From: Alphaproteobacteria bacterium
GTDB lineage: Bacteria > Pseudomonadota > Alphaproteobacteria > MPNO01 > UBA830
Reading direction: 5' to 3'
DNA: 64,000 nt
NCBI GenBank assembly: GCA_964291215.2
Contig: OZ219790.1
Location: 2,240,001 to 2,304,000 of the forward strand
In this document: positions 7,945 through 61,119 of the stretch, piece by piece
Layout: each line of letters begins with the position of its first letter
Position numbering within the stretch: the first letter of the stretch is position 1
Made by a program: the position numbers and the translations under genes
Notes under the pieces: model-generated
What the model was told of the DNA's origin: nothing
Database searches by the model: none
Seen by the model: only the letters and a program-made list of their open reading frames with translations

Positions 7945-9001
7945 ACCTTGGCAAACGGAGCAACGGATCTGGGGCGGATCTTTGGTCAGCTCTTCGAGCT
8001 TGCGATGCAAATCGAGCGCGAGCAGCACTTGAATGCGGGCCGCTACGAACGGACACCGGAACGACAGGGCTATGCCAACGGCTACAAGCGGATCGACACC
8101 CCCACTGTTACCGTTCAGGTACCAAAGACGGCCGGTCACGGGGACGACCCGTCCCCAGTCGCTTGAACGCAGCCAGCGATCTTCTCGCGCCGTAGCCGAG
8201 ATGTACATCAAGGGTGTTTCCACACGGCAGGATGTAATGCGCGAGTTCGGGAGCCTGTCCTCTTCTCAGGTCAGCCGGGCCACCAGGTTGCTCGATGAAG
8301 AACTCGCCGCGCAACCGGCCCCTGATGAAATACCTGGATGCGCGCTACGAAAAAGCCCGCCATGACGGCGTTGTGCGCGATGTCGCAGTGCTCTCGGCCA
8401 TCGGAATAGGGGCTGCAGGCACGTTCTGGGGCTCTCTGTGGCGCTCTCCGAGGCCGAGGTCCATTGGAGAGCCTTCCTGGAAAGCTTGCTAGCCCTGCAT
8501 GGTACGACCTTCATCGTCTCGGATGCCGGGCTGAAAGCAGCACGACGCGCGGTGCTGGGCGCGGCGATGTGGCAGCGCTGCCAGTTCCACCTGGCGCAAA
8601 ACGCCGTGCACCGAACAACGACATCAGGAAACGTATTGGAAAACAGCTCGGAGCCATGCGTCCTCACTCCAAACCGCCGAGGCTGAACTGGCCGCCCTCG
8701 TGGCCAGCTATCGCGACAAGCATCCAAGCTTCCTGGCTGGAAAACAATGCGGGGCTCGCTGTCTTCACCTTGCCCGATGCTCACCACAAGCGCATGCGAA
8801 CCTCGAATGGCATCGAGCGACCGATCCAGCAAGAGCTCAAGCGGCGCACCTCCAAAGTCAGGGTCTTTCCGAACCTCGCCTCATTGGAGCGCCTCTCAAC
8901 CGCGGTCCTCATCGACGAAAAATGGGAAACCGAAACCAAGATCAAATGGGAACAGCTCGATCAGCTTCACGACAATTTCCAGACATCGGGTTGCGTAATC
9001 C
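7945..9001 (+). mobile_element. Decayed IS256-family element, copy A (5'-truncated)
   Basis: RQGYANGYK, AEMYIKGVSTR, WQRCQFH, RTSNGIER, VFPN; near-identical to copies at 27.2 kb and 60 kb. Confidence 0.9.
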
Positions 9002-9108
9002 CATCTTGTACAGGAACTCTCGCCGCTACTGGACAGCTCCGCAACATCATGCGTCTAAAAACACATGGCCACAGCCCATCATGTGTTGCACTTCACTATG
9101 GAACGGGG
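9002..9108 (-). repeat. IS30-family left-end fragment
   Basis: Near-identical to 28449-28557, 58737-58844 and 59535-59642; contains TGTTGCACTTCACTATGGAA. Confidence 0.8.
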
Positions 9109-9257
9109 GTCAGAAAGCTCAGCGCATCCGGCACAAAAGGCGCGTCTGCCTGCTGGCCGAAAAGGTCGGTGGGCGTCAGTGACAGCGACAGACCGGCTGC
9201 CGCGCCGGCCACGCCAATCAGGAACGCGCGGCGGGTGGGCGTTTGAAACAGGGTCAT
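9109..9257 (-). pseudogene. Truncated Tat-exported molybdopterin subunit (IorB-like), N-terminus only
   Basis: MTLFQTPTRRAFLIGVAGAAAGLSL twin-arginine signal directly after the 2Fe-2S gene, cut by the IS30 end. Confidence 0.6.
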
Positions 9258-9267
9258 TTCGGCCTCC

Positions 9268-9720
9268 TCAAACCGATTCGGCGGCGTGACGGATCGCGGC
9301 CTTGATGCGTGGGTAAGTTCCGCACCGACAGATATTTGTCATGGCATCGTCGATGTCCTGATCCGTCGGCTCGGGAATTTCGGCCAGCAGGGCTGCGGCG
9401 GCCATCAGCTGCCCCGACTGGCAGTAACCGCATTGCGGCACGTCAATCTCCAGCCAGGCCTGTTGCACAGCATGTAATGCGTCGGGTGTACCCAGTCCCT
9501 CGATTGTGGTGATCTCGGCCCCCTCCGCTGTGTCCGCAGGATAGGAGCAGGACCGGACCGCCACGCCGTCCACATGCACCGTGCAGGCCCCGCATTGGGC
9601 GATACCACAGCCGAACTTTGTTCCCGTCAGCCCTGCTTCTTCCCGGATTGCCCACAAGAGCGGCGTGCCCGGATCGACATCCGCTTCAATTTCCCGACCG
9701 TTTATCTTGAGTTGGACCAT
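9268..9720 (-). CDS. (2Fe-2S)-binding subunit of xanthine dehydrogenase / isoquinoline 1-oxidoreductase family (IorA-like)
   Basis: [33 protein letters not shown]. Confidence 0.92.
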
Positions 9721-9790
9721 ATCGCCCTCCCTGATTCAGTTGTCTTGATTAGACACGTCACAAAGCCCGACCGCCTTGTAGTATCGTGCT

Positions 9791-11833: not shown

Positions 11834-11906
11834 GTAACTGCTCACCCCCCTAGTTCCAGCTTGATATCGGGGTAGAGCAACGAACGGGTTTTCGTGAAGA
11901 TTTGAC

Positions 11907-13472
11907 ATATCTACTCACCCCTAGTTGGGTTCTGATTGGTCGTAGTGCTCGTTGATGATGTCTGCGGCTTTTCCGTCGAGGGCGATCTGGGTGGCGACGT
12001 GATGATTGTAGCCGAGTGCGGCCATGGAGGTGAGGTAGCTTGAGCCCCGGCACCATGCTTTTGCGTGGAGCATGGTGCGGAAGCATCCGGACACCTTGAC
12101 CTTTGCCATCCTGATCTTCTGTTCTCCGGCATTGTTGGTGAAGCTGACGTCGGGGTTGTCTATGAAGCGCAAAACGGACTTTTCGTGTTTCACGAGACGT
12201 TCGTGCAGGTTGTGCGCGTCGGACTTGCGTCCACGTTTTCCTTTCGTCGGCGGCGGGATATCGGGCAGTTCCCTGGCGCCCTGATGGTGCGGTAGCGCTT
12301 GCGTACGGCCCGGCGTCGTTCAGGGTCTTGGATGCGCTCTTGTTGACCTTGTGGCAGGGAGCAGGCTCTTCATCAGTCGCGCCCAGCGGTAGCCTCGACG
12401 ACAAAGGTCAGTTCGCGCAGCAGGTGGCTGCCGCACAGCTGGTGGCTACATTGGTCATAGCCCATGTACGAGGCCCAGGACGCCCTTGTAGCACGGGCCG
12501 ATCTCTTGCCCGCGCTTGCGGTGCGGGAACTTGCACGTCAGGGTCCCACGACATGGAGCCACTTACTGTTGATCCGAAATCGTCGACATCGGGCGTTGCA
12601 GGAGGTGCGCCACGGCGGCCTCCTCCCATGACGCATCGTGAAAGCATAGCCGAGGCCTCGGAGAGCTTGATGCCGGAGATCGCCTGCACGAACGCGACGG
12701 CGCAGGGATAGCATCTGGGCGACCAGCAGGTTGATAACGAGGGCCTGGATGCCGATGCCGTACTGCACGGGATGTTGTCGGGGAACCGGCCCCGGGCCTT
12801 GCACTTCGGGCATTCCTTGATCTCGGCGCGGCGCTCGACGACCTCGAACACGATGTCGTAGAGGACGCGGCGCTCCCGATCGACGGGGCCGTCGATGTCG
12901 GCGCCGCAGGCGTCGCAGGCCGCGACCGTCTCCTCGACGATGATCTTGCGCAGGTTGTCGCCCATCTGCCGGTTCGGCTTCGGGCCCTTGCCGTTGCTCC
13001 CGGCACGCTCTCGTCCTTGTCCGTCTGTGACGGCGGCAGACCGGAGTTCCGGCTCGTGCGTGGTCTTCTCCAGAAGGACGACGATGATGATGTCGAGCAG
13101 GATGACGAGGACGCGGATGACGGCCTCTTCCGCCACCTTGCCGGCCGCACGCAGCGCCGCGATCCGGGTCTTGGCCGCTTCGAACTCCTCGCGCAGCGAC
13201 GCCGCGTTGACCGTCGCCATCACCCGGCCTTGCGCTTCATTAGCGCGCCGCTTCCGAGATGCGTTTCCACATACAGATCATGCGGGGGCTGGAGCCCCGG
13301 AAGCAGCTGGCACAGCCCGCTCGTCGCCTTCGATCCAAAGTAGCCCACTGGCGGTCCCCGTCGTTCTCGATTACCACCACTAAACGAATCGGCCTGCAGT
13401 GTCAAATCTTCACAAAAACCCGTTCGTTGCTCTACCCCGACATCAAGCCGGAACCAGGGGGTGAGCAGTTAC
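11907..13472 (-). mobile_element. Decayed IS66-family element (single-ORF type), copy 1
   Basis: Ends GTAACTGCTCACCC / (A)TATCTACTCACCC; 8-bp flanking repeat GATTTGAC; NSGLPPS, QLCGSHLLREL, FTNNAGEQKIRMAKVK. Confidence 0.88.
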
Positions 13473-13581: not shown

Positions 13582-15180
13582 GTATCTACTCACCCCTAAT
13601 TGGGTTCTGATTGGTCGTAGTGCTCGTTGATGATGTCTGCGGCTTTTCCGTCGAGGGCGATCTGGGTGGCGACGAGTGGGTTGTAGCCGAGTGCCGCCAT
13701 GGAGGTGAGGTAGCTCGAGCCCCGGCACCATGCTTTTGCGTGGAGCGGAAGCACCCGGACACCTTGACCTTTGCCATCCTGATCTTCTGTTCTCCGGCAT
13801 TGTTGGTGAAGCTGACGTTGGGGTCGTCTGTAAAGCGCAGGTTTTCGTGTTTCACGAGACGTTCGTGCAGGTTGTGCGCGTTTGCGTCCACGTTTTCCTT
13901 TCGGCGGCGGCGGCGGGATGTCGGGCAGTTCCCTGGCGCCCTGAGTGAGGATGGTGCGGTAGCGCTTGCGCACGGCCCGGAGGTCGGCCTCGTTCAGGGT
14001 TTTGGATGCGCTCTTGTTGACCTTGTGGCAGACCTCGCGGAGCAGGCTCTTCATCAGTCGCGCGGTAGCCTCGACGACAAAGGTCAGTTCGCGCAGCAGG
14101 TGGCTGCCGCACAGCTGGTGGCTACACTGGTCATAGCCCATGTACGAGGCCCAGCAGTCGTGGACCAGGACGCCCTTGTAACACGGGATGATGCCGATCT
14201 CTTGCCTCCCGGCCGCGCTTGCGGTGCGGGAACTTGCACGTCAGGGTCCCACGACATGGAGCCACTTGCCGTTGATCCGAAATCGTCGACATCGGGCGTT
14301 GCAGGAGGTGCGCCACGGCAGCCTCCTCCCATGACACGAGCGCATCGTGAAAGCATAGCCGAGGCAGGTTGCCTCGGAGAGCTTGATGCCGGAGATCGCC
14401 TGCACGAGCGCGACAGCACGGCGCAGGGACAGCATCTGGGCGACCAGCAGGTTGATGACGAGGGCTTGGATGCCGATGCCGTACTACACGGGATGTTTTC
14501 GGGGAACCGGCCCTTGGTCCGGGCCTTGCACTTCGGGCATTCCTTGATCTCGGCGCGGCGCTCGACGACCTCGAACACGATGTCGTAGAGGACGCGGCGC
14601 TCCCGATCGACGGGGCCGTCGATGTCAGCGCCGCAGGCGTCGCAGGCCGCGACCGTCTCCTCGACGATAGTCTTGCGCAGGTTGTCGCCCATCTGCCGGT
14701 TCGGCTTCGGGCCGTTGCTTCCGGCACGCTCTTGTCCGTCTGTGACGGCGGCAGACCGGAGTTCCGGCTCGTGCGTGGTCTTCTCCAAAAGGCCGACGAT
14801 GAGGATGTCGAGCAGGATGACGAAGACGCGGATCACGGCATCGACATCTTTCGGCACCTTGCCGGCAGCGCCGCGGTCCGGGTCTTGGCCGCTTCGAACT
14901 CCTCGCGCGCCGCGTTGACCGTCGCCATCACCCGGCCTTGCGCTTCATCAGCGCGCCGCTTCCGAGATGCGTTTTCACATACAGATCATGCGGGGGCCGG
15001 AGCCCCGGAAGCAGCTGGCACAGCCCGCTCGTCGCCTTCGATCCAAAGTAGCCCACTGGCGGTCCCCGTCGTTCTCGATGACCACCACTAAACGAATCGG
15101 CCTGCAGTGTCAAATCTCCACGAAAACCCGTTCGTTGCTCTACCCCGACATCAAGCCGAAACCAGGGGGTGAGCAGTTAC
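13582..15180 (-). mobile_element. Decayed IS66-family element, copy 2
   Basis: Tandem near-identical copy of 11907-13472 with a different set of deletions. Confidence 0.88.
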
Positions 15181-25109: not shown

Positions 25110-28100
25110 GGTACTGTAACTTGATGTCTGGAAATTTGTCTGAGGTTTGCGCTTTGAGGCGTTTCACTGGGGGGGCTAGCCCTGCCGTGTCATGACAAAT
25201 CTGGTTGACAATGGTTTACGTGTTCACGCGTGTCTTTGTCTATCCCGGAACCCGATTTCCCGGCCGATTTGGTGACCCAGTGCGGCGCTGGTGTGTCTGG
25301 CCACATGATCTGGTGACCCGGGCGTGCTTTCGGTCGCGGTAGCCGCCGAGATGGGCGACCAGGTGCACCGCATCGGCGAGACGCTCCGGTTCCTTCAGGG
25401 CGTACTTGTGTGCGTAGTCGCGCGAGTTCGCTGTCGGTGAACATCAGCTGCGGCTCGCACCTGGCGGCCGAGCAGGGTCATGACCATGATGCGCCATGCG
25501 ATGACGGCGTTGATCGCCCGCTGCAGGCGGTGCGGAACAGCAGGTGTTCCACCCTGCATCCGGATTTGAGCACGTAATCCTCGATTCGCCAGCGCTGAAG
25601 GTAGAAGCCGACGATGTCGGCCGCCTCCTTCGCCAACCCGCACGGTGGTCAGCAGGCACCGGGATCCTCACCCTCGGGCGCTCCCTGACCCCGTGCAGGG
25701 ACACCGGCTTCGCGCTGGGGGCGGTGCCCGTCACGGGCAGCGTGACGGACCGCAACTCGCCAGGCGCTTCTGTCGCGCGGGCCTTCTTCCGGCTGGCTTG
25801 CTCCGTCAGTCCCTCGATCTCAATCAGGCCTGCACCGCCGGCCATGACGGCGAACAGCCTTCCCTCCTTCAGCACCCTGTCATGCTTGGCGCGCAGATCG
25901 ACGCGGGGCAAGCGCGTGTCGAACAGCTCGAAGATGTCGGCTTCCCGACGGAGATGACGCGCGTCTTGCCGCCGGGGTGGCAGCGGCGATATCCTTGAAC
26001 CCCTCGAGCCAGCGCTGCGGCGTGTCTCCTGCGACCGGGGCTTCACCGGACCCAGCACCCCGAGTGGCAGGTCAGTCACCGCCAGGGTCGCGTGCAGGCT
26101 TGAGGCCCCGGTCTGGTTCTCACCTGCAGGCCGTCGCAGCCGGGAGAAGTTCAGGTCCGTGCCGCAAGAACCGTCTTCTGGCCACGGATGCGCCGGATGC
26201 TGCGCTCACGGTGCGGCGCAAGAATGTTCGCCGGCGTGATCTCCGAGGGCGACCATCCGGTAAAACGCATTGATCGCGGTGTTGTCGGCGCTGGGAGACG
26301 CATTGATCTTCTGACCGGCCGCCAGAAGGCTGGCGCTCCAGGCGCGCAGAAAGTCGCTTGTCACCCCCCTCCAAACTCGTTCTGCGCCCAGTCGTTCAGA
26401 CCTTCGCCCGGCGAGGGCGCATGATCGACCTCCCCAGCTTCCTGCGCGCTCCAGTTCGGCCACGAAGACCGTCTTCACCGTCTCCCAGTGCTCCCGATCC
26501 TGCCGGCCTTCGGTCCTGCACAGGAAGTTGGCCGCGCGCAGGCAGGGTAACCTTCATCGGCAAAACTGAGCCATGGTCGAAACGGTCCTCGAAGTCACGC
26601 GGCGCAGGATGCGCACATGGCTGGCTAGATGCGGGCAGAGCACCTGATCAAGAAACGGCTCAGACAGACGATCCGCTGCAGGTGGTTCCGGCGCTGCCCG
26701 TCGTTCCATCCAGCGGTCCCGCGCCGCGCGGCGGCGGCAAACCCCGCTGCGCCACCCGTGCGCCGAGCCCACGAGATATTGGCAGCCGGCGAAGGTCGTC
26801 GCGGGTGTTCACGCGCAATCAGCGTGACCGCTCGGTCAATACGATCCCCGACCACGATGATCCCGAATGCGCGCGCCGGAACCTCTGCAGCGATACCAAC
26901 AGGCGAGGCCGGCGGTCGATTGTCGGTGACTTCGGCACCGGCAGGACGATCTCCGGGCGCCCTCAGCGCCTTCATGCAGCCGGCAAGCTGCAGACGGCCG
27001 CGCGCGTCGACAAAGGCAAACTCCTCGCAGACGACCCAGAGCCGACCGGCTGTCGAACTGCTCACAGGACAGCAGCGACGCGATCCGCGCAACTGCTGCC
27101 TCGTCCCGCAATGTGCGGCTGATCTGAGACTGTGACATGGGACACTTATGCCACGCCGAAACACCGTTGTTCAGCTAAAATTTCCGTGACATGCGAGGGC
27201 TAGCCCCCCCAGTGAAACGCGGCGCCATCGTGCTATCCCATGGAGCTGTAAACATTCATGGAGGAAGCGAATGGACCTGCGACACACTACGACGATCGGG
27301 ACTGTTTTGGAACATCTGATCGCAAACGGAGCAACGGATCTGGGGCGGGTCTTTGGCCAGCTCTTCGAGCTTGCGATGCAAATCGAGCGCGAGCAGCACT
27401 TGAAAGCGGGCCACTGGACACCGGAGCGACAGGGCTATGCCAACGGCTACAAGCGGATCGACACCCCCACTGTTGCCGTTCAGGTGCCAAACGGTCACGG
27501 GGACGACCCCCCCCCCCCCAGTCGCTTGAACGCGGCCAGCGATCTTCTCGCGCCGTAGCCGAGATGTACATCAAGGGTGTTTCCACACGGCAGGATGTAA
27601 TGCGCGAGTTCGGGAGCCTGTCCTCTTCTCAGGGGCCACCAGGTTGCTCGATGAAGAACTCGCCGCGCAACCGGCCCCTGATGAAATACCTGGATGCGCG
27701 CTACGAAAAAGCCCGCCATGACAGCGTTGTGCGCGATGTTGCAGTGCTCTCGGCCATCGGAATAGGGGCTGCAGGCACGTTCTGGGGCTTTCTGTGGCGC
27801 TCTCCGAGGCCGAGGTCCATTGGAGAGCCTTCCTGGAAAGCTTGCTAGCCCTGCATGGTACGACCTTCATCGTCTCGGATGCCGGGTTGAAAGCGGCACG
27901 ACGCGCGGTGCTGGGCGCGGCGACATGGCAGCGCTGCCAGTTCCACCTGGCGCAAAACGCCGTGCACCGAACAACGACATCAGGAAACGTATCGGAAAAC
28001 AGCTCGGAGCCACGCCTCCTCACTTCAAACCGCCGAGGCTGAACTGGGCGCCCTCGTGGCCAGCTATCGCAACAAGCATCCTGGCTTCCTGGCTGGAAAA

Positions 28101-28369
28101 CAATGCGGGGCTCGCTGTCTTCACCTTGCCCGATGCTCACCGCAAGCGCATGCGAACCTCGAACGGCATCAAGCGACCGATCCAGCAAGAGCTCAAGCGG
28201 CGCACCTCCAAAGCCAGGGTCTTTCCGAACCTCGCCTCGTTGGAGCGCCTCTCAACCGCGGTCCTCGTCGAGGTCGACGAAAAATGGGAAACCGAAACCA
28301 AGATCAAATGGGAACAGCTCGATGACTGAGAGCTTCACGACAATTTCCAGACATCAGGTTGCGTAATCC
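25110..28369 (+). mobile_element. Decayed IS256-family element, copy B, interrupted by an IS4-family element
   Basis: Left end GGTACTGTAACTTGATGTCTGGAAAT at 25110, body 27197-28369, right end ATTTCCAGACATCAGGTTGCGTAATCC. Confidence 0.88.
25183..27196 (-). mobile_element. Decayed IS4/Tn5-like element with N-terminal DUF4338-like domain
   Basis: GDKRLSARL, READIFELF, RAKHDR, AINAVIAWRIMVMTLLGR; 10-bp flanking repeat GGGCTAGCCC. Confidence 0.8.
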
Positions 28370-31636: not shown

Positions 31637-31639
31637 GGC

Positions 31640-36133: not shown

Positions 36134-38884
36134 TCACTGGCCCAGCCGTTCAATGATCGCGTTCACGTGCACTTGGTCGGCCTTGTAGTTGCCGGTCAGC
36201 GCATACATCACCCAGTTGACGCCGAAGCGGTACGCCATCTCGCGCTGCCGCTCGCCATCGGGCACCACCGCGGCCAGCGGCCGGCCGGACCGGTCGACCG
36301 CCCATGCAGCGGCCCAGTCGTTGGAACCGATCACAACCGACGAAACGCCGTCATTGTGGCGGCCGCCGCGGCGCTCGACCCATACCGGGCCGCCGGCCCA
36401 CCGCCCGGGGAAGTCGTCGAGCAGGTAGAACGACCTGCCGAGCACGTGATCCTCCGGCAGCCTCGTCAGCAAGGGCACGTCGAGCCCGTCGAGCAGCCGC
36501 CGGAGATTGAGCGCGGCTGCGCCGCTGCCGCCGCGGGCACGCGTATCGAACAGTATCGTGCCGCCGGTACGGAGGAAGCGGGCGAGCTGGCGCCGCGCGC
36601 GTTCCGAAGGCACCTGCTGGCGCCGAGAAACCGCCCAGTAAAGGAGCGGAAACAGCGCAAGGTCGTCGGTCTCGATGTCGACGGCAATCGTCTCGCCCGG
36701 CTCGACCGACGTGCGGGTCTTCAGCACCCTGGCGAGGCCGTGCATGCCAGCCTCCGTCATCTCGTCGAGCGCCCGATCGCCGGTGCGGACATAGGCAAGC
36801 CGGGTCACGGACGTCGCCTCAATTGCCCGGCGGTCGGCAGCATCCGCCGCACCGCCGGGCATGGTCTGGGCCGCGCCGGCGCCCGGATCCGCGGCTAACA
36901 GGGCGAGGCCGGCGACGCCGGCGGCGACAGCCCTTCCGGGCCGCGGGAGGCGCAGCAGCCCGCGGAGTGCGAGGCTAGCGGCGAAGTCGGCCAGCACGAG
37001 GAGAAGCGCCGCAAGAAGGAGCCACGGCCTGAAATCGAGCACCGAGCCGCGGACCAGCGCCTGTCGCTCGACCCCTGCAGGCAGGCCGCCGATAGCCGCG
37101 AGCCGGTCGATGCCGGCCGCCAGGTTGAGGGCACGCCGCGCCGTCTCGGTCCCGTAATAGCCGGGCGGCGTCGCCGCCGACGGCGCGAGGCCGGGCAATT
37201 CCCGCAACGACACGCTCACCGCGTCCGTCGGCGGCGGCCCCAGGCGGCCGAACCCGTCGAGGGTCCGGAACGGAGGCAGGACGGCGTCGGCGCGGGTGCC
37301 GATAACACCGACGCTTAGCGCAACGATGCGGCGCAGCATGTCCACGAACAGGCCGGAGATAGGCAGGTTCGACCAGTCGGTGTTCGCCGTCGTGTGAATC
37401 AGCACGAGCCAGCCGCGGCCGCGCCTCTCCGCGGTAACCAGCGGCGTTCCGTCGGAAAGCCGCGCCCAGGTCCTGCGGTCGAGGTCGAGCTCGGGCTCGG
37501 CGAGGACCTGACGGCGGACGCGCACGTCGGCCGGCGGCGCGAGCCCGGCGAAGGGGCTGGCTTCCTCGAACGGCAGCAGCCGCGCCGGCTCGGTCCACGA
37601 CATCGTGCCACCAAGCGAGCGGTCGCCGCCGCGCAGCCGCACCGGCAGCATCGCGTCCTCGGCGACGCCGGCAGCGGCGGCAAGTTTCGGTCCGGCAAAT
37701 CGCAGGAGGACCCCACCCCGGTCGATCCACCCGGCGAGCGCCGCCGCGTCGCCGGCAAGCAGCCGGCCGGCGTCCGGCAGCGCAATGACGGCAAGTCCGC
37801 GCTCCAGCAGTTCCACGACGCTCCCCCTGCGCACCTCGGCAAACGGAGCCAGCGCCCTCTCAAGGTAGTAGGTGGCGGACAGGAGAGGCTGTTCGGCCTC
37901 GACGGCATCGCCCGGAACGACGCCGACCGGGCGGCGGCGCCAGCGTTCGTCGATGAGGAACACGCCGCCGGCGCTGTCGGCAGCGACCAGCGCGACGCGC
38001 GCGACTTCGTTGCGGAGCTCGGCCGGCAAATCGATGCGAACCGTGGCCTGCGCGGCACCGCTCTCGAAACGGCCGGCGCGCCCCTCGGCGACGAGGCGTC
38101 CATCCTCTGCGAGCGCCTGGAGCCGGATGTCGCGAATGGCCGGCACGGCGATGCGCGAGACTGGAACCGAGAATCCGTCATCGCCCGATTCCGGCGCACC
38201 GACGAGCCATGCCCGCACCGCAGCGGGCTGCTCGATGACGGTGAGGCTTCCAAGTGACTGCAGCCGGCTGGCGAGGGCGGCCGCGGCGGGACCTCCGATG
38301 CCGTCGGCGATCCAGACGGCATGGGCGGAGCCCTCCACGCTAAGTTCGCGCAAGGCCGTCAGTGCTGCGGCGCGGTCGGGTGGCCACGGCTTGGGCGCCA
38401 GCCCGGCGAGCAGGCTCCTGGCATCGGCGGCACGCATAAGTCTGCTGACCTCAAGCGGTTCGGACGCCCGCGCAAGCGTGGTCGTCAGGAAATGCACCGG
38501 CCGGTTCTCCCGTTCCGCCCGGACCAGCAGCTCGTCGATCCTGTTCCGGCGCTCTGCCCAATCCGGCGCCGACGCCCAGCCGTCATCGACGACCAACACC
38601 AGCGGCCCAGTACCGTGGAATTTGACCCCCGGGTTGAGAAGCGGATGCGCGAGCGCGAAGATGACCAGCGCGGCGGCAAGGATACGCAGCACGATCAGCC
38701 ACCACGGCGTACGGGCAGGCGTCTCCTCACGGGGGCGCAGCGCAAGCAGCAGCCTGACGGGCGGGAAGCTGACCACGCGCGGCGACGGCGGCGTAACCCG
38801 CAGCAGCCACCACAGCGCCGGCAGGGCGGCGAGCGCGGCCAGCAGCCACGGCGACGAAAAGACGAGGCCGCCGAGTTCCGGCAT
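36134..38884 (-). CDS. BatA N-terminal / DUF4159 domain membrane protein
   Basis: LWWLLRVTPP..FP, TPARTPWWL; C-terminal RFGVNWVMYALTGNYKADQVH. Confidence 0.88.
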   Translation of the reverse strand: MPELGGLVFSSPWLLAALAALPALWWLLRVTPPSPRVVSFPPVRLLLALRPREETPARTPWWLIVLRILAAALVIFALAHPLLNPGVKFHGTGPLVLVVDDGWASAPDWAERRNRIDELLVRAERENRPVHFLTTTLARASEPLEVSRLMRAADARSLLAGLAPKPWPPDRAAALTALRELSVEGSAHAVWIADGIGGPAAAALASRLQSLGSLTVIEQPAAVRAWLVGAPESGDDGFSVPVSRIAVPAIRDIRLQALAEDGRLVAEGRAGRFESGAAQATVRIDLPAELRNEVARVALVAADSAGGVFLIDERWRRRPVGVVPGDAVEAEQPLLSATYYLERALAPFAEVRRGSVVELLERGLAVIALPDAGRLLAGDAAALAGWIDRGGVLLRFAGPKLAAAAGVAEDAMLPVRLRGGDRSLGGTMSWTEPARLLPFEEASPFAGLAPPADVRVRRQVLAEPELDLDRRTWARLSDGTPLVTAERRGRGWLVLIHTTANTDWSNLPISGLFVDMLRRIVALSVGVIGTRADAVLPPFRTLDGFGRLGPPPTDAVSVSLRELPGLAPSAATPPGYYGTETARRALNLAAGIDRLAAIGGLPAGVERQALVRGSVLDFRPWLLLAALLLVLADFAASLALRGLLRLPRPGRAVAAGVAGLALLAADPGAGAAQTMPGGAADAADRRAIEATSVTRLAYVRTGDRALDEMTEAGMHGLARVLKTRTSVEPGETIAVDIETDDLALFPLLYWAVSRRQQVPSERARRQLARFLRTGGTILFDTRARGGSGAAALNLRRLLDGLDVPLLTRLPEDHVLGRSFYLLDDFPGRWAGGPVWVERRGGRHNDGVSSVVIGSNDWAAAWAVDRSGRPLAAVVPDGERQREMAYRFGVNWVMYALTGNYKADQVHVNAIIERLGQ

Positions 38885-43980: not shown

Positions 43981-44098
43981 GCCGCTGCCGCCACCGGAAC
44001 CGCACGAGCACGCCTGGCAGGCTGAGGGTGGACATTCAGCGAGACGCCCCTCCCCCTGCGCATCCTACGGCACGGCGCCAAACGTCAGAGCACGACAC

Positions 44099-44985
44099 AT
44101 GGAGTTCAGATCCATTGTCGGCGCGGAAGGCAATGCGCTGACCGTCTCGGTTATCGGGCTGGGTTGCAACAATTTCGGCCGCAGGCTGGACGAGCGCGAC
44201 TCGCGGGCGGTCATCCATGCCGCGCTCTATGCCGTAATCACCCTGTTCGACACCGCCGAGTCCCATGGCGGCGGCCGGTCGGAAAACTATATCGGGAAGG
44301 CGCCGGGCGACCGGTGCCGCGAGACTGTCATCGCCACCAAGTTCGGCTGGAGCGACGCGCGGCCCCGCACCATTGCCAGCGCGGTCGAGGGCAGCCTGAA
44401 ACGCCTTCGCACCGACGTGATCGACCTTTATCAGTTCCACCGGCCCGACCCGTCGACGCCCATCGCCGACACCCTCGAAGCGCTCGAAACGCTGGTGGCA
44501 CAGGGGGAGGTCCGCTTCGTCGGTTGTTCCAATTTCTCGGGCGACCAGATCGCGGAAACACGGGCGGTTTCGGACGCGCGCGGCTGGTGCGCCTTCGTCA
44601 CCACGCAGAACCGCCACAGCCTGCTCGACCGCGACGCCGAACTCCACATGGCGCCGGCCTGTGCGGCAGCGGGAATGGGAATCCTGCCCTACTACCCGCT
44701 GGCCAACGGGCTGCTGACCGGCAAATACGGGCGCCCTGGCCACGCGGGACGCGGCTGTCGGCCGGACAGGTCTCCGAGGCCGAGTGGCAGGCGGCCGAGC
44801 GGCTGCAGCGCTTCGCAAAGGCGGAGGGCCGCAGCCCGCTCGAACTGGCCGTCTCCTGGCTCGCCGCACAGCCCGGCGTCCTCAGCGTGGTCGCCGGCGC
44901 CACCTCGCCCGCGCAGGTCACAGGCAACGCCGCGGGCTGGCGGCTCGCTGAAGCAGAACTCGCGGCAATCGACCGTCTCACTTGA
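44099..44985 (+). pseudogene. Aldo/keto reductase, frameshifted near 44740
   Basis: GLGCNNFG, FDTAE, ATKFG, SLKRLRTDVIDLYQFH, PYYPLANGLLTGKY; C-terminus LAVSWLAAQPGV in another frame. Confidence 0.85.
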
Positions 44986-53253: not shown

Positions 53254-53267
53254 TGCTATGCCTCCCC

Positions 53268-56200
53268 TCAGTTCACCAGCACCGGGTCATTCGCGATCCC
53301 CTCGAGGAACGTCTTCTTCTGGCACCCGATCCAGGCTTCAACCTCTGCCCCATCGCGCAAGGTGGCGCGTTCGAGAGAGATCGTCTGAACCTTGGGCAGG
53401 AGAAGCTTGGCGGCACGCTCGATGGCCTGAGCAATACGACCGGGGATCGCATCGATCTCGGCCTGCGCGCTTGCCAACGGCCTTTGATCGAGATGGTTGG
53501 CCCCAGCGCTTCGTCGTTCGCAACCTCGGGTTTCGTCGGTTGCTTCAAGCCGACCGCGGCCTTGATTGCGTCCTGGTCAGCCACCGGAACCTGTTTCCAG
53601 ACATCATTCCCATTGAGGGAACGCATCGCTTTCTGGAACGCGTCCTGGTGCGCCGCGAAGCTGTCCTGCACGGCCTTCCGCAAGAGGTTGCCCAGCGCAA
53701 CGCGGATGCCGCTCGCCGGATCGGAGTTGTCGAGCAGAAGCCGCTGACTCCGCACCGCCTCGATCTGGTCGAGATGCGGCTTGGCCGCCTCCAGCGCGTC
53801 GGCATGCCTCGCCAGCCGTTCGATCAACTGCCATTTGGGCAGCCGCTCGGTGATCAGGCTCTTGGCGGCTGACCACTGCTTGATCTTATCTTCCCACCCG
53901 GGGGCCTTGTCCTTGATCGCGACCAGCTGCTCGTTGCCGATGAGCCGCTGGATATCCTCGATTTCGGTCACTGCCGGCGAGGTCGGAAGGGGAGCGTCGC
54001 CACCCGCAGACCGAGCGAACTCGATCAGCTTGCTCAGGAACTCGCCAGCGCGGGCGCCCTCTTCACCGCCCTTGCAGGGGACGCTGAGAGACTGAAACAG
54101 CTTGCGCAACACCAGGCGGTCTTGCACCGAGAGGGGCACATGCTCGACGAGGAACGCGGACTTGGAGATCTTATTCTGGTCGAGCTGACCGAGGGGGACT
54201 GCGGCGCCGTTCAGCGTTGCGGTGATATGCTGCGAGCGGTGAAGGGCAACAAGTGCGGCATCAACGGCGTCGCGCGGCCAGCCAACGGGCGCGCGCCCGA
54301 GGGCCTTGCGAATGTCCGCGCCTGTCTTGCCAGCGCCGATGGTGGTGGTCACCTGCCGATAGACCGGGTGCTTCTCGGTGGCGTCGGTGTGGCCTGTCGG
54401 TTGGAACGGGTGGTCCGCGCCGTCCCGCGCCCGCTTGATGACGGCCGCCCATGCCGCGCTGTCCGCCTCCTCGAACCGGGGAAACATGCGCACCAGCGCG
54501 TCGTCGGTCGCGGTCTTGATGCGGTCATCCAAGGAGGAGAGCAGCACTTCGCTGCCGCCGCCCTGATAGACCTTGGCATTGCTGACGATCTCGCGGACAA
54601 GTCGATCACGGTCGCCGACGGCGCGCGCACGTCGGCTGTCCATGCTCTGCCTGGCTTCCTGACCCTCCGGGGAGGTCGGATTGCCTTTCGCGTCGAGAGC
54701 CTGCTGCGCCGCGTCGGCCTCGACGATCAGGCGGCGAAGGTCGTCGGCCGATTGGCGCGGAAGGAAAACATGAAGGACCGGACTGTCGGCTCCGGCAGCA
54801 CGCGCTGCGTCGACCACTTCCTTCTCCGAGGCGCTCCAGCCATCGCGGATCCAGATCGGGATGCCGCTGCCATCGACAGTCGGCGGCGTCGCCTCGCGAT
54901 GCACGACGAACTGGCGCGGCTCCTTGGCAGCGCCCTGAACAACACGCAGGCCACGGACGAGCTTGTCGATCTCCCCATAGAGCAGTTGGTCGCGCTTGAA
55001 CTGGATCGCCGCGTCGTCGTTGTTGAGCTTCGTCTGCCGATTGCGGAATTCGCGGTCCCATTCGCTGCCCTCGCGGGTCTGCAGGCGATACTCCTCGCCG
55101 ACTGGCATAAGGACGCCCAGATCCGAGAGCTTCTTCAGCATCGCCTCGACATCGCTGCGCAGCTTGCCGTTGTCGGCCGCCAGGTCATCGATGAGAAGGT
55201 CAGCGATGTGCTCGCTGGTTGCGCGCACCCCTATGTCGGCGCCGGCTTCGCGCTTCAGCTTGCCGATAAGGAAGACGAGGCCGCAGACGCGCTGCGCGAG
55301 AGGACCTTCGGCCCGACCGACCTGAATGATGCGTTCGTTGATCTCGCGAAGCAGAACGCCGGTGTTGACCATCTCCGGCGCCAGCGCGTCGAACAGCTTA
55401 TCTCCGGGCACGACGGTGCCAAGCGAGCGATCCGACAGCTTGGCGATCGCGTCATGGATGATCCGCAGCTGGGAGCGCAGCTGGCTGTGGGTGGCGGCGG
55501 CATCGATCTGGCGGAAGCAGTCCTCCCAGAAGCGGCGGCGTACCGGCAACAGCGGATAATCCTCAACAACAACCTTCCGATCCTCAACCGTCTCGCCGAT
55601 CCGCGTGCCCTGGAGCTGACGCGACACCTCGCCGGCGTGCTTGTCCAGCAGTGAGCGCACATCGCCGACCGCGGTGGGCTTCTTCTGGAGCAGCACCTTC
55701 CGCGTGACTGTCTCCACTTCGGCGTCGGACAACGGCACGCGGATGGTGAACCGGTCCATCAACTTCTGGAGCAGAGGCACGTCGGTGAGCGCGCTCTGTC
55801 CGGCACCCACGATCATCACGTGGCTGTCGAGCTGCTTCGAGACGGCTTCGGCCACTTCGGTCACGAGCACGGAGCGATCATTGGACTCGCCAATGTACTG
55901 CTGCGTCTCGTCCAGGATGAGGAGCGTGCAGGGCAGGCGACCATCCTTGCCGACCAGTTGGAGCGCATCCTTCGCCGTTCTCAGGAACTGGTCGGTCGTA
56001 ATGTCAGACGTCTGGAGTGGAAATTGCGCTCTCAGCGCTTGCCGGGCCTCAGCTTCGTTCGTGGCGAAGGCGTGCTCGCAGGCGAGGACAGCACGGGCAA
56101 TCGGCCCACTGACGTAGAGATTGTTGAGTTCGCGATCGAAGGACCCGCCGGCGGTCTCGACCTTGATCTTGTCAAAGTGCCCGAGTGAGTGAAGCCAGAG

Positions 56201-56482
56201 ACAGAAGCACGCCTGCGGGTATTGCTCTGGGAGGCCGGCGGCGCGCAGCAGAATCCCGAGAATGGTCAGACGGACATTATCGATCGTGCCACTCGGGAGA
56301 GCGCCTGCCGCCGCGATCAGACCACCAGCGCGCTTTCCGGCGGTGTCGAGCTCCCGCAAAAGGTCGTGCAGATCCTTGTCGTAGACGACCATGACGACCC
56401 GCTGAGCACCGGTAACGGTTCGCTGCCAGGGCGTTGCGATGTGACGGCCGTACTTTTCCGCGAGATCTTCGACGCGAGCCAT
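53268..56482 (-). pseudogene. brxC: BREX brxB'-'brxC deletion fusion with a C-terminal frameshift
   Basis: BrxB-like first ~37 aa; BrxC body LDETQQYIG, LQKLMDRF, YPLLP, LRSQLR, GWPRDAVD; no Walker A; frameshift near 53502. Confidence 0.75.
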
Positions 56483-57618: not shown

Positions 57619-58844
57619 CCCCACTTCCAGTCTGAAGTGCAACATCCGGTCCTCATCGCAGTGAGGGCGTAGCCCGAACAGAGATGAGGGCCGGGTGTTG
57701 CACAAGTTTTCCCCCTCTGCCCCTCTCGATTCCGCCTGGGAACAGCTTCAGTTCCTTCAACATCGAGCTTATGCAACGCCTTTGTCGGCTTCAAGCCACT
57801 ATTTCGTCGTAGCGCGGCATGGACCCTGCTGCACGTTGCGGCTTCGGAACGCAGATGGTCAGGGCGGTTTCACTTCAAGATTACCTCCGTCGGCGATCCC
57901 AGGACTTTCCGAGTGTTGAGCCGATCCTGTACCTTCTGAACATCTTCGTTGCATGTCGCGCGAAAGTCCGTGCCCTTCGGGAAGTACTCCCGCACCAGGC
58001 CGTTGGTGTGCTCATTCAAGCCGCGCTCTCAAGAATGGAAAGGCGAAGAAGAAATCTGCGTCAAGTACTTCAGCGACACGCCTGTGGTCTGCGAACTCCT
58101 TGCCGTTGTGATTGTGTGGACCAATAGCGCACCAGAGCCGAGCAGGCGGATCATGACCGAACCGACCGTGTCTGCGGTCTTTCTCTGCACCCGTCCCAGC
58201 AAGGTGTATTTCGTGGCACGAGCGACACGACAGCTCCACTGTGAGCTTTGCCGATGATGGCTCCCAGTCGCCGATCCGTTCCTTTGCCTCCGCAGGGCGC
58301 TCGGAAATGTCCACTCGGCCAGGAATGTGACCCCGATGGCATCCGCCCTTCCAGTTCGGCTTCTTGCCGCGCCGCCGAAGCTTCTTCCACAAGACGCCCC
58401 CGGCTCTCCGATCTTCGGCGATCATGGATCCGTTGCCGACCCACGGCCCTCCAGTCGAAAACGGCCGCTGCTCGGGGCCCTCCCGCAGCTTTTTCTGAGC
58501 TTCAACCCGAGGCGTCAACCGCCAGGAAACAGACGAGGCTGCCCTGCGTTTCTGCCATCCTTTGCGCCTGCTTGTGACGGTAACCCCGTCCCCCGGTGTT
58601 GCGCTTGATCTCCCGGAAAATTGTTGATCGGCCCAGCTGCCGAGCAAGCGCACCTTGTTAAAGACCGCTTTTCTGCCTCAATCTGGCATCGCTCTTCGTA
58701 GGTGACGGTAGCCTTTGGACATGAACAAGCTCCCTTCATCTTGTACAGGAACTTTCGCCGCTGCTGGACAGCTCCGCAACATCATGCGTCTAAAAACACA
58801 TGGCCACAGCCCATCATGTGTTGCACTTCACTATGGAACGGGGG
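57619..58844 (-). mobile_element. Decayed IS30-family element
   Basis: TYEERCQIE, GRVDISERP, RIGDWE, NGKEFA, NEHTNGL, RKVLG; both ends present. Confidence 0.85.
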
Positions 58845-59497
58845 ATGGATTTAACAGTGTCCAGTTGAAAGGGCTGAAGCAGTACTGGTGCATTCCACCG
58901 CACCGGAGCGCACAGTTCGTGGCGAAGGATGTGCTTGACATCTATCAGCGGGACTTCGCCGGGGACGAGGTGCTGAGACCAGCCGGCAGCAGACGAAGGA
59001 ACCCCCCCGGTCAACCGGAGGCGGTCGACTATGAATATGAGCGCAACGGTACGGCCAACCCCTTCCTGGCCTTTGCGCCCAACGAGAACTGGCGCACGGT
59101 GAAAGTCACCGACCGCCGCGGGACTGGGCGCACTTCATCCGGGAGCTTGCCGACGACCATTTCCCCGACAGGAAGATCGTGCTGGACAATCTGAACACGC
59201 ACAGTCCCGCATCACTATATGAAGCCTTCGAGCCCGAGGAGGCGGGTACGAAAGCGGTTCGAGTTTCGCTACACGCCGAAGCACGGGAGCTGGCTCAACA
59301 TGGCCGAGATTGGCGCGCTGTCGCGGCAATGCCTTCGGCGACACATTCCCGACAGAGACACCATGCGGCGGGAGGCGGCGGCGTGGGTGGAACGGCGCAA
59401 TGCGGCCGATGTCACCGTCGACTGGCGTTTCACGACGAAGGATGCCCGGACGAAACTGAAGTCACTATATCCATCAATATAATAATGCCAGAATACT
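58845..59497 (+). pseudogene. IS630-family 3' remnant (different from the 5.1 kb element)
   Basis: DYEYERNGTAN, LDNLNTH, YTPKHGSWLNMAEI, ARTKLKSLYP. Confidence 0.85.
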
Positions 59498-59642
59498 AGG
59501 TGACGGTAGCCTTTGGTCATGAACAAGCTCCCTTCATCTTGTACAGGAAATCTCGCCTCTACTTGGCCACTCCGCAAAATTATGAATCTAAAAACACATG
59601 GTCACAGCCCATCATGTTTTGCACTTCACTATGGAACAGGGG
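59498..59642 (-). repeat. IS30-family left-end fragment
   Basis: Diverged copy of 58700-58844. Confidence 0.75.
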
Positions 59643-59845
59643 AGATGATTCGCATTTTTTCTGGCTTTTTTGTGAAGCGGTGTAGTATCCGTTGCTGTGA
59701 TGGAAGGGGCAGCGAATTTTTGTGAGACGACTCCAGAGGGTTTTGCGCTCCGGGATGTGGTTGTACGCCTTGCGCGGCCTGGTATCGCTGGAACCGTGTG
59801 GTTGACCGTCATCACTATGCTTAGGTTCAAGCAGTTTGTGGGTCG
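59643..59845 (+). repeat. Copy of the ISAs1/DUF4338 element leader
   Basis: Homologous to about 3847-4030. Confidence 0.75.
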
Positions 59846-59853
59846 AGATCTGC

Positions 59854-61119
59854 GGATTACGCAACCTGATGTCTGGAAATTGTCGTGAAGCTGATCGAGC
59901 TGTTCCCATTTGATGTATGCCTTGGTTTCGGTTTCCCATTTTTCGTCGATGAGGACCGCGGTTGAGAGGCGCTCCAACGAGGCGAGGTTTGGAAAGACCC
60001 TGACTTTGGAGGTGCGCCGCTTGAGTTCTTGCTGGATCGGTCGCTCGATGCCGTTTGAGGTTCGCATACGTTTGCGGTGAGCATCGGGCAAGGTGAAGAC
60101 AGCGAGCCCCGCATTCTTTTCCAGCCAGGAAGCCTGGATGCTTGTCGCGATAGCTGGCCACGAGGACGCCCAGTTCAGCCTCGGCGGTTTGGAGTGAAGA
60201 CGCATGGCTCCGAGCTGTTTTCCAATACGTTTCCTGATGTCGTTGTTCGGTGCGTGCTGCACGGCGTTTTGTGCCAGGTGGAATTGGCAGCGCTGCCATG
60301 TCGCCGCGCCCAGCACCGCGCGTCGTGCCGCTTTCAGCCCAGCATGGTCATCCGAGACGATGAAGGTCGTACCATGCAGGGCTAGCAAGCTTTCCAGGAA
60401 GGCTCTCCAATGGACCTCGACCTTGGAGAGCGCCACAGAGAGCCCCAGAACGTGCCTGCAGCCCCTATTCCGATGGCCGAGAGCACTGCGACATCGCGCA
60501 CAACGCCGTCATGGCGGGCTTTTTCATAGCGCGCATCCAGGATCAGGTATTTCATCAGCCCAAGGGGCCGGTTGCGCCAGGCGGCGAGTTCTTCATCGAG
60601 CAACCTAGTGGCCCGGCTGACCTGAGAAGAGGACAGGCTCCCGAACTCGCGCATTACATCTTGCCGCGTGGAAACACCCTTGATGTACATCTCGGCTACG
60701 GCGCGAGAAGATCGCTGGCCTCGTTCAAGCGACTGGGGGGGTCGTCCCCGTGACCGGCCGTCTTTGGCACCTGAACGGCAACAGTGGGGGTGTCGATCCG
60801 CTTGTAGCCGTTGGCATAGCCCTGTCGCTCCGGTGTCCGGTGGCCCGCTTTCAAGTACTGCTCGCGCTCGATTTGCATCGCAAGCTCGAAGAGCTGGCCA
60901 AAGACCCGTCCCAGATCCGTTGCTCCGTTTGCGATCAGATGTTCCAAAACAGCCTCAATCGTCGTAGTGTGTCGCAGGTCCATTCGCTTCCTCCATGAAT
61001 GTTTTACAACTCCATGGGATAGCACGATGGCGCCGCGTTTCACTGGGGGGCTAGCCCCCCAGTGAAACGCCTCAAAGCGCAAACCTCAGACAAATTTCCA
61101 GACATCAAGTTACAGTACC
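59854..61119 (-). mobile_element. Decayed IS256-family element, copy C, both ends present
   Basis: TIRs at both ends; flanking repeat GATCTGC(G); 36-bp perfect palindrome at 61035-61070. Confidence 0.9.

What the first reader, a model, noticed from the sequence alone, without database searches (positions are those of the whole stretch)
7945..61119. Mobile DNA is eroded by dense microhomology-bounded microdeletions
Seen: every IS here keeps high nucleotide identity to its sibling copies but carries many ~5-14 bp deletions that collapse short direct repeats. IS256 copy C vs A/B: TACCTGATCCTGGAT>TACCTGGAT (CCTG), GATGACCATGC>GATGC (ATG), GTGCAGCACGCACC>GTGCACC (GCA). Copy B vs A/C: CTCGTCGAGGTCGAC>CTCATCGAC (TCGA). 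IS66 copies: GCCCAGCAGTCGTGGACCAGGAC>GCCCAGGAC (CCAG), GGGCCCTTGCCGTT>GGGCCGTT (GCC). IS30 ends: GTAGGCCAGGTG>GTAGGTG (AGG). Neighbouring host genes are intact, and the same decay style appears to affect eight IS families. Inference: either a strong genome-wide slippage or microhomology end-joining deletion bias visible only in unselected DNA, or a process targeting repeats or mobile DNA (a deletion analogue of fungal RIP). This is the best candidate for an undescribed system, but no responsible gene is identifiable in the window.
Basis: partly seen in the sequence, partly recalled or inferred. Interest (0 to 1): 0.8.

Follow-up and report, generated by a model that had tools for sequence, protein, structure and literature searches.

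The report
Transposons riddled by precise six-base deletions
In this bacterium and a distant relative, copies of jumping genes have lost about a tenth of their DNA as precise 5-7-base pieces at the same sequence-preferred spots, about 16 times more densely than ordinary non-coding DNA, likely through an unidentified DNA-cutting process that would amount to a bacterial way of destroying multi-copy transposons.

Summary
In 339 copies of ten high-copy elements of this alphaproteobacterial genome (G000), 6,442 of 8,294 deletions are 5-7 bp (12.5/kb). One third of alleles have no microhomology; the lost piece prefers R-Y-Y-S-R. Read-derived contigs of two samples carry such alleles.

The class also exists in single-copy DNA and is lineage-specific: 50 vs 3 intergenic events against a 93%-identical congener, 0.8/kb. 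Density rises with copy number; annotated non-mobile duplicates stay near background. Identical deletions sit on diverged subfamilies that keep their own flanking SNPs (11 of 12 testable sites), so they most likely arise repeatedly.

A distant congener (G002) shows a 5-6 bp, 5'-ATY-anchored version; IS samples from three other relatives do not. An earlier scan note reported the AT-anchored form on other DNA.

Most likely: paired cuts 5-7 nt apart at preferred sites, rejoined without Ku, focused on multi-copy mobile DNA (inferred). No enzyme was found: Ku, ATP-dependent ligase, NucS, TopIB and Argonaute were not detected, and the repair genes checked are intact. RIP-like in effect, not in chemistry.

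The parts
3795..5090 (.). Multi-copy element (about 45-50 genomic hits, family not assigned), heavily eroded
   Evidence: 29 deletions of 5-8 bp, 7 of 9-20 bp, 21 substitutions vs family reference; coverage; no Pfam hit in 7 frames tried
5092..6198 (+). IS630-type element, eroded
   Evidence: DDE_3 and HTH hits in ORF 5125-5943; 15 deletions of 5-8 bp, 16 substitutions
6180..7945 (.). Two further nested multi-copy repeats (44-68 hits); deletion load of these window copies not counted
   Evidence: coverage; 5-bp alternative alleles at 7054, 7134, 7837 in read contigs
7951..9001 (+). IS256 copy A (5'-truncated), eroded
   Evidence: Transposase_mut hit; 14 deletions of 5-8 bp, 20 substitutions; alignment
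11834..13472 (-). IS66-family copy 1, eroded
   Evidence: 14 deletions of 5-8 bp, 26 substitutions over 11908-13472; alignment
13583..15180 (-). IS66-family copy 2, eroded
   Evidence: DDE_Tnp_IS66 hits; 12 deletions of 5-8 bp, 32 substitutions
25200..27190 (.). Multi-copy element (13-20 hits), family not assigned, deletion load not counted
   Evidence: coverage; no Pfam hit in 7 frames tried
27197..28369 (+). IS256 copy B, eroded
   Evidence: 15 deletions of 5-8 bp, 30 substitutions
37668..37680 (.). Approximate site of a single-copy 6-bp gap in a host ORF that remains open
   Evidence: G000 lacks 6 bp relative to G001 at C1:2277674; ORF 36134-38884 open
43990..44940 (.). Three single-copy gaps (6, 7, 6 bp) in the AKR/TauD region
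   Evidence: C1:2283994, 2284735, 2284934 relative to G001
57619..58845 (.).
   Evidence: 9 deletions of 5-8 bp, 18 substitutions; self-matches; family label not confirmed by Pfam
58872..59500 (+). Partial IS630-type element of a second family (about 68 hits)
   Evidence: weak DDE_3 hits; the overlapping cluster R15 carries 8.6 deletions/kb
59854..61119 (-). IS256 copy C, eroded
   Evidence: 9 deletions of 5-8 bp, 2 of 9-20 bp, 20 substitutions
63030..63998 (.). ISAzo13-type element (6-9 hits), runs off the window
   Evidence: DDE_Tnp_ISAZ013 hit; gapped matches to siblings

Best explanation
Multi-copy transposons in this genome carry dense 5-7-bp deletions at shared, sequence-preferred sites, likely made again and again by an unidentified nuclease that would cut twice 5-7 nucleotides apart, after which the ends would be rejoined without Ku. 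Shown: size class, motif, density, presence on separate subfamily haplotypes, low-level presence in single-copy DNA, lineage specificity. Inferred: (1) the two cuts, probably staggered on opposite strands, because both ends of the lost piece show a similar 'not-C then pyrimidine' start and protection by point mutations is symmetric over about 12 bp; (2) trimming and ligation helped, but not required, by 1-4 bp of microhomology; (3) a roughly 16-fold (per kb) focus on mobile DNA through a copy-number-dependent step such as ectopic pairing intermediates or element-derived guides; (4) fine mosaicism of SNPs among copies as short non-crossover conversion acting on the same DNA. The net effect is that resident high-copy elements are inactivated within about 2% sequence divergence.
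For: Size: 6,442 of 8,294 events are 5-7 bp in 339 copies; 62 are 3 bp and 54 are 4 bp. Polarity: merging the non-deleted states restores a 420-aa IS256 frame and a 627-aa frame in cluster R16. Motif: EM log-likelihood 571 vs 115-129 for three shuffled sets; 84 held-out single-copy events score 0.15 vs -0.81 for the null; G002 pieces start AT-Y in 56% of 80 vs 3%. Recurrence: R23 subfamilies are 5.9% apart, 17 of 23 diagnostic SNPs in the main frame are synonymous, cross-conversion is 2.6%, yet 30 of 47 alleles are shared; 11 of 12 shared alleles with diagnostic SNPs within 15 bp on both sides keep own-subfamily bases in both subfamilies. The same 9-11-mer in a non-homologous context is deleted in 10 of 78 cases (reciprocal pairs counted twice) vs 1.3% background. 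Survivors at high-frequency sites have 15 rare SNPs/kb within 3 bp on each side vs 7-9 at 21-40 bp. Focus: 12.5/kb vs 0.79/kb intergenic; rho 0.60 with copy number, -0.09 with substitutions. A two-copy element has about 13 gaps of 5-13 bp against 21 substitutions in 968 bp, more than background supply. No coding-strand (154 vs 134) or replication-strand (788/1613 vs 783/1553) bias. No Ku or ATP-dependent ligase in 5 of 5 congeners.
Against: No effector was identified. Local sequence explains only part of site choice (13% re-use), and allele frequencies correlate weakly between subfamilies (rho 0.19, -0.02, 0.43), which points to history (shared ancestry or spread) as well. Common SNPs are themselves shuffled at 10-30 bp scale, so conversion is certainly active. 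In heavily eroded low-copy pairs one copy is nearly intact (12 of 12 pairs with 6 or more gaps), which a symmetric pairing trigger does not predict unless the intact copy is younger. Some families of 10-18 copies carry 1 deletion/kb or less. The intergenic baseline is partly constrained DNA, so the 16-fold figure is an upper-leaning estimate. The copy-number correlation uses 45 clusters that overlap and are not independent.
Confidence: 0.45

Rival explanations
1. Background mutator plus deletion drive: the 5-7-bp alleles arise once at the genome-wide rate (1.5-4% of substitutions) and then spread by a one-way, very short-patch transfer, in which a deleted copy pairs with an intact one and the looped-out bases are removed; loops of 5 nt or more escape MutS (recalled from E. 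coli work, not tested).
For: Deletion alleles are few and mostly at intermediate to high frequency while SNP alleles are mostly singletons (IS256: 7 of 38 vs 212 of 359). Linkage decays within 15-30 bp. Deleted copies have fewer rare SNPs within 15 bp (ratio 0.43, 0.69, 0.82, then 1.0). Load scales with copy number. Target duplications are kept in 21 of 29 full IS66-family copies, so exchange is non-crossover. mutS, mutL and recA are intact.
Against: Transfer across subfamilies would have to carry the deletion but not SNPs 1-14 bp away on both sides (11 of 12 sites); one such site has eight linked SNPs within 23 bp. Supply is too low for elements with two to four extant copies (13 gaps in 968 bp in G000; 33 in 2,380 bp in G002 locus L268), unless partners were lost. 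The protective footprint is about 12 bp, not an extended pairing region.
Confidence: 0.25
2. Single-strand cut-and-skip chemistry: an enzyme nicks one strand twice (as eukaryotic TOP1 does at ribonucleotides, or an aberrant excision at a dipyrimidine-type lesion) and seals across the gap; mobile DNA is hit more because it passes through exposed states (transposition intermediates, untranslated transcripts), not because homology is sensed.
For: Site preference with a short fixed size resembles TOP1-type deletions (abstract starts of PMC13131469 and PMC8866115). The fitted motif is partly asymmetric, with a pyrimidine four bases from one end in 87% and a strong 5'-AT anchor in G002. The heavily eroded low-copy elements that could be annotated are all mobile (IS630-like, IS91-like, Transposase_29, group II intron).
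Against: No type IB topoisomerase in 5 of 5 congeners; RNase HII intact; no transcription- or replication-strand bias; sizes differ from the 2-5 bp TOP1 range; DDE, HUH and retro-elements have different intermediates yet share the signature; two low-copy IS66 elements are uneroded.
Confidence: 0.2
3. Ordinary replication slippage or microhomology end-joining acting equally everywhere and visible only where selection is absent.
For: Microhomology of 2 bp or more is twice the null; intact genes tolerate only 6-mers; Danneels et al. found microhomology at 171 of 396 pseudogene deletions and an excess of 3n sizes (PMC6054270).
Against: Sizes 2-4 are rare, 5 and 7 abundant, unlike the power law with 3n excess of that paper; one third to one half have no microhomology; intergenic DNA with about 52 substitutions/kb per branch has 0.8/kb while IS copies with 13-40/kb have 9-20/kb; G001 has no such class.
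Confidence: 0.05
4. Assembly or polishing artefact in repeats.
For: Both genomes with the signature are near-complete assemblies rich in repeats; runs X1 and X2 belong to one study and X1 is probably the source sample; the read data are contigs, not raw reads; for the CCTGAT allele at 8332, X2 showed depth 0 in the table.
Against: Long and short alleles occur in read-derived contigs of both samples (4111, 7054, 7134, 12381); in a two-copy element both forms stand at single-copy depth (36 vs 42) and two of its deletions recur in X2; CRISPR arrays (96 and 17 repeats) and five hsdM copies show none; two G002 copies are identical and intact beside an eroded one; the motif differs between genomes.
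Confidence: 0.02

Closest known systems
Repeat-induced point mutation (RIP) of filamentous fungi (recalled, no call)
   Same: Repeated mobile DNA accumulates one dominant, context-preferring mutation far above background and is inactivated; single-copy DNA is largely spared.
   Different: Deletions of 5-7 bp, not C-to-T transitions; a bacterium with no sexual stage; many duplicates are untouched and eroded pairs are asymmetric; homology recognition is not shown.
Deletional bias and Ku-independent alternative end-joining in bacterial pseudogenes (Danneels et al. 2018, PMC6054270, parts 2-4 of 6 read; Chayot et al. 2010 known only through citations in PMC6054270 and PMC12426944)
   Same: Short deletions in unselected DNA, part of them with microhomology, in genomes without Ku/LigD.
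   Different: There: power-law sizes with 3n excess and an insertion-to-deletion ratio of 0.76. Here: a 5-7-bp peak, a sequence motif, the same sites hit in different copies and subfamilies, and strong concentration on multi-copy elements.
ID-TOP1 / ID4 deletions by topoisomerase 1 (PMC8866115, PMC13131469; search listing and abstract start only)
   Same: Enzyme-made short deletions at preferred sites through two cleavage events.
   Different: 2-5 bp and transcription-associated; here 5-7 bp, no strand bias, no type IB topoisomerase found, RNase HII intact.
EndoMS/NucS mismatch cleavage (5-nt staggered cut around a mismatch; recalled)
   Same: A symmetric stagger of about the right size that could act on heteroduplexes between repeats.
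   Different: No NucS domain in G000; none of the 30 shared R23 deletions contains a subfamily-diagnostic mismatch.
Prokaryotic Argonaute interference with multicopy DNA (recalled; search gave listings only)
   Same: Copy-number-dependent targeting of IS and other repeats.
   Different: No Piwi domain in 5 of 5 congeners; the protective footprint is about 12 bp and symmetric, not guide-length.
Earlier scan note e1-6857563 (AT-anchored 5-6-bp deletions eroding transposons, another genome)
   Same: Same size class and, for G002, the same AT anchor (62% of 80 here; 119 of 188 there).
   Different: G000 has a looser R-Y-Y motif (AT start 24% vs 10% null) and a 5-7-bp range; this report adds recurrence across subfamilies, copy-number dependence and the single-copy baseline. 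Whether that genome is G002 was not determined.

Membership tests
RIP-like repeat silencing | One mutation type strongly enriched in repeats over single-copy DNA | tested here: met
   12.5/kb vs 0.79/kb; 0 of 1,090 single-copy windows above 3 per 400 bp
RIP-like repeat silencing | C-to-T transitions made by a cytosine methyltransferase-like enzyme | tested here: not met
   The enriched class is a deletion; substitution load does not track it (rho -0.09)
RIP-like repeat silencing | Any duplication above a length and identity threshold is hit, both copies alike | tested here: not met
   100 of 112 low-copy pairs have fewer than 6 gaps; the 12 eroded pairs are one-sided; many uneroded pairs have open frames and may be selected
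RIP-like repeat silencing | Recognition by DNA-DNA homology | tested here: inconclusive
   Copy-number correlation for; short symmetric footprint and eroded two-copy elements not decisive
Alternative (microhomology) end-joining | Microhomology at most junctions | tested here: not met
   224 of 673 have none, 164 have 1 bp; 41 of 80 have none in G002
Alternative (microhomology) end-joining | Independence of Ku/LigD | tested here: met
   No Ku or ATP-dependent ligase domain in 5 of 5 genomes, controls rang
Alternative (microhomology) end-joining | Broad, resection-driven size range | tested here: not met
   78% of events are 5-7 bp
TOP1-type deletions | Type IB topoisomerase present | tested here: not met
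   PF01028: 0 of 5 genomes, control rang in 1
TOP1-type deletions | Transcription association | tested here: inconclusive
   No coding/template bias (154 vs 134); expression not measured
EndoMS/NucS | NucS domain; cut centred on a mismatch | tested here: not met
   0 of 1 genome; no diagnostic SNP inside 30 shared R23 deletions, 6 of 80 in R41 and R16 together
CRISPR or Argonaute self-targeting | Guides matching the elements; guide-length one-sided footprint | tested here: not met
   0 of 111 spacers match the genome outside the arrays; no Piwi; footprint symmetric; the pPIWI-RE search had no positive control
Transposase target-site footprints | Deleted piece matches the target-duplication length and consensus of a resident element | tested here: inconclusive
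   Duplications were readable for only 4 of about 20 clusters; none resembled the motif by eye
Any candidate nuclease | In vitro cleavage at the predicted sites | not testable with these tools
   uncultured organism, no enzyme in hand

The most novel reading that the evidence does not exclude
These bacteria carry an undescribed, patchily inherited anti-transposon system that senses multi-copy mobile DNA of any class (DDE and HUH insertion sequences, group II introns) and destroys it by excising 5-7-bp pieces at sequence-preferred sites: a bacterial deletion counterpart of fungal RIP, with a lineage-specific nuclease (R-Y-Y in G000, A-T-Y in G002).
Probability: 0.35. Interest if true: 0.95.

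Novelty: categorically new. Interest (0 to 1): 0.8.

Why it matters
Bacteria are thought to lose transposons by slow deletional bias and selection. Here a single, sharply defined mutation class removes about 10% of the bases of resident elements while they are still about 2% diverged, and its sequence preference differs between two species, as an enzyme's would. If a dedicated system does this, it is a new kind of genome defence and implies an unknown nuclease or end-joining route in cells without Ku. Even under the rival readings it is an undescribed bacterial mutational signature with a ready diagnostic (a 5-7-bp gap peak in repeat alignments) that can be screened across complete genomes to find the gene by co-occurrence. 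Ten literature searches returned no description of it; the library lacks most subscription journals, I read only listings for most hits, and no supplements were read.

Tried and rejected
Loss of a repair gene: recA, mutS (N-terminal domain), mutL, polA, rnhB, ruvC, recJ, xseA and uvrD all lie in open frames in 5 of 5 congeners; dnaQ, uvrABC, recG, recFOR and the glycosylases were not checked. Gain of an effector: NucS (G000 only), Ku, TopIB, Piwi and ATP-dependent ligase not found; pPIWI-RE search uninformative; RecT/ERF-type annealing proteins and TnpB not searched. Cas9 (II-C) is present in G000 and G002 and was not found with this query in G001 or G003, but G019 has a 76%-identical copy and no 5-7-bp gap in 6.3 kb of repeat pairs, and no spacer is self-targeting: kept only as a weak lead. 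Hairpin or palindrome model: no excess complementarity, folding energy -2.8 vs -2.6. A fixed motif at a distance (restriction-type or TAM): none stood out within 16 bp. Target-site duplications did not match. Clustering of different alleles at one spot was at most slight. Locus-specific comparison with sample X2 was underpowered: X2 covered the two-copy element only in part, at depth 4-6. No shared high-identity accessory region between G000 and the roughly 0.55 Mb of G002 held. My first reading (conversion drive) was demoted.


Full report
Setting. The window is G000:C1:2240001-2304000 of a 6.15-Mb, two-contig, 99% complete genome. Protein relatives are alphaproteobacterial; habitat was not established here. 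Four congeners are held: G001 (about 93% nucleotide identity, draft) and the complete G002, G003 and G004 (67-76% on a host-gene block). About 28% of G000 lies in repeats of five or more copies.

The observation. All quoted examples exist. I aligned near-full copies (85% of the seed length or more; at most 80 per family and 40) to a family reference made by merging non-deleted states. That construction forces gaps to be read as deletions, but it restores a 420-aa IS256 frame and a 627-aa frame in another cluster, so the polarity is right. In 339 copies of ten high-copy clusters (514 kb), events of 1-8 bp number 149, 225, 62, 54, 1348, 3270, 1824 and 244; 78% of 8,294 are 5-7 bp and about 10% of bases are lost. 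Each family has only 22-89 distinct 5-7-bp alleles, most shared by many copies in ever different combinations (64 of 64 IS256 haplotypes distinct). Microhomology is enriched but not required: of 673 distinct alleles seen in two or more copies (singletons and alleles near ends dropped), 33% have none (null 51%) and 42% have 2 bp or more (null 20%).

Not an artefact. Contigs from two runs (one study; X1 is probably the source sample, X2 differs by SNPs in unique flanks) carry alternative 5-6-bp alleles at IS-scale depth; 12 of 43 indel rows were shown, and one allele seen in X1 had depth 0 in X2. In a two-copy element both forms stand at single-copy depth, and two of its deletions recur in X2. 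CRISPR arrays and five hsdM copies are untouched.

Genome-wide but focused. Against G001 (471 of 786 kb fetched aligned at 85% identity or more, crude gene calls), G000 lacks 50 pieces of 5-7 bp in 63.5 kb of intergenic DNA against 3 in G001, while 1-4-bp gaps are balanced (146 vs 126). Intact genes show 19 vs 1, all 6-mers; a mixed 'disrupted' class shows 19 vs 8. With a relaxed filter none of 1,090 single-copy 400-bp windows holds more than three. High-copy elements carry 12.5/kb, about 16 times the intergenic value per kb and roughly 40 times per substitution (my arithmetic). Load follows copy number (rho 0.60) and not substitutions (rho -0.09) over 45 partly overlapping clusters. Of 112 low-copy duplicate pairs, 12 have six or more gaps, always almost all in one copy; 7 of these 12 have a transposase-type or maturase Pfam hit and 5 had no hit. 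Of 13 less eroded loci examined, seven were non-transposon genes, two low-copy IS66 and four unannotated. Many uneroded pairs keep open frames, so selection contributes.

Sequence preference. An orientation-free EM fit gives G-N(0-2)-Y-S/Y-R-N followed by G (log-likelihood 571 vs 115-129 for shuffles), and 84 single-copy events score above the null, so one process makes both classes. Read symmetrically, each strand of the lost piece tends to start with 'not C, then pyrimidine'. Undeleted survivors at high-frequency sites have about twice their background of rare SNPs inside the piece and within 3 bp on both sides. The same 9-11-mer elsewhere is deleted ten times more often than background but only in 13% of cases. 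Only 22 of 251 neighbouring hot sites are under 15 bp apart (no formal null). There is no coding-strand or replication-strand bias.

Recurrence or spread. Linkage among SNPs and deletions decays within 15-30 bp and deletion alleles are far commoner than SNP alleles, which first suggested biased conversion. Three results argue for repeated origin. Two R23 subfamilies diverged under selection (17 of 23 diagnostic SNPs synonymous), exchange only 2.6% of diagnostic bases, yet share 30 of 47 alleles; R16 shares 48 of 66, R41 32 of 74, R26 21 of 55, while R31 and R44 share 0 of 7 and 0 of 6. Eleven of 12 shared alleles flanked by diagnostic SNPs within 15 bp keep own-subfamily bases on both sides. 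Elements with very few extant copies can be fully eroded. Against a purely intrinsic rate, allele frequencies correlate weakly between subfamilies, and deleted copies show a small SNP-poor halo, so some spread or shared ancestry is likely.

A second species. In a 400-kb sample of G002, 49 repeat pairs give gaps of 1-7 bp numbering 37, 9, 7, 3, 68, 81 and 6. Of 80 distinct 5-7-bp gaps, 62% start with AT and 56% with AT-Y on one strand (null 6% and 3%). One element has two identical intact copies, a lightly hit copy and one with 33 events of 5-8 bp in 2,380 bp (only 40 of 172 candidates were scored, so more fragments may exist). IS samples from G003, G004 and G019 (19, 66 and 6 kb of pairs, chosen through Pfam and so biased to intact copies) give 1, 4 and 0 distinct 5-7-bp gaps. 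After these analyses I found scan note e1-6857563, which reports the AT-anchored form in another genome; it agrees with my G002 result and was not used as evidence.

Mechanism. No checked repair gene is broken and no candidate effector was found (see Tried and rejected). A fixed 5-7-bp size, a preference at both ends, a short symmetric footprint and optional microhomology fit two cuts 5-7 nt apart followed by Ku-independent joining (inferred, 0.45). The focus on multi-copy mobile DNA of three chemistries (DDE, HUH, group II intron) needs a copy-dependent step, which is also inferred. Deletion-only transfer between copies (0.25) and single-strand cut-and-skip on exposed mobile DNA (0.2) remain open; plain slippage (0.05) and artefact (0.02) are largely excluded.

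Comparison and verdict. The effect resembles RIP (recalled), the junctions partly resemble bacterial alternative end-joining (PMC6054270, parts 2-4 of 6 read; PMC12426944, five passages), and the enzyme-like size and motif recall TOP1 deletions (abstract starts), but a defining feature of each fails. Ten searches found no description; supplements were not read and may bear on this. The finding is real, replicated in a second species, and mechanistically unresolved: interest 0.8.

Noticed in passing
window 18614-24633: Defence cluster: AbiEii/DUF6088 toxin-antitoxin pair, IrrE-like peptidase, SMODS/DncV-like nucleotidyltransferase and patatin-like gene (CBASS-like).
   Followed up: no
window 28808-32581: MmeI-type restriction-modification gene (942 aa) next to Mrr; partial MmeI copies at C1:37523-41338 and C1:1003822-1005295 show no 5-8-bp gaps.
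   Followed up: partly
window 43643-46144: One 833-aa frame joins an aldo-keto reductase and a TauD domain and holds three single-copy 6-7-bp gaps relative to G001; it may be a decay-made fusion.
   Followed up: partly
window 51455-56482: DUF4276 and AAA_21 ATPase pair followed by a 1,069-aa ORF with no Pfam hit.
   Followed up: no
G000 cluster R41 (e.g. C2:3330732-3332616, C2:3402922-3404765): A group II intron-like element (about 67 hits) inserted at one fixed site inside the IS66-family element; one copy keeps a 386-aa reverse transcriptase frame and is the least eroded of 40.
   Followed up: partly
G000 C1:574246-581179 and C2:2063981-2069543: Two CRISPR arrays (96 and 17 repeats), the second with a 1,046-aa Cas9 whose closest relatives are in G019 (76%) and G002 (65%); arrays are uneroded and not self-targeting.
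   Followed up: partly
G000 IS256 family, both sides of the left internal region (window copy B 27196-27210): A G-run/C-run palindrome around CTAG varies widely in length between copies.
   Followed up: no
G000 C2:848017-849818 and G002 L265-L270: Elements whose transposase frame carries a DruA (PF14236) domain in G000; young intact and old eroded copies coexist in both genomes (the G002 element's family was not confirmed by Pfam).
   Followed up: partly
whole genome G000: About 28% of the genome lies in repeats with five or more copies and 15% in repeats with 30 or more, with a single 16S gene.
   Followed up: yes
G000 IS families: Common SNPs, partly synonymous and clustered in micro-haplotypes, are in near linkage equilibrium beyond 30 bp while target duplications are kept: unusually fine non-crossover mosaicism.
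   Followed up: partly
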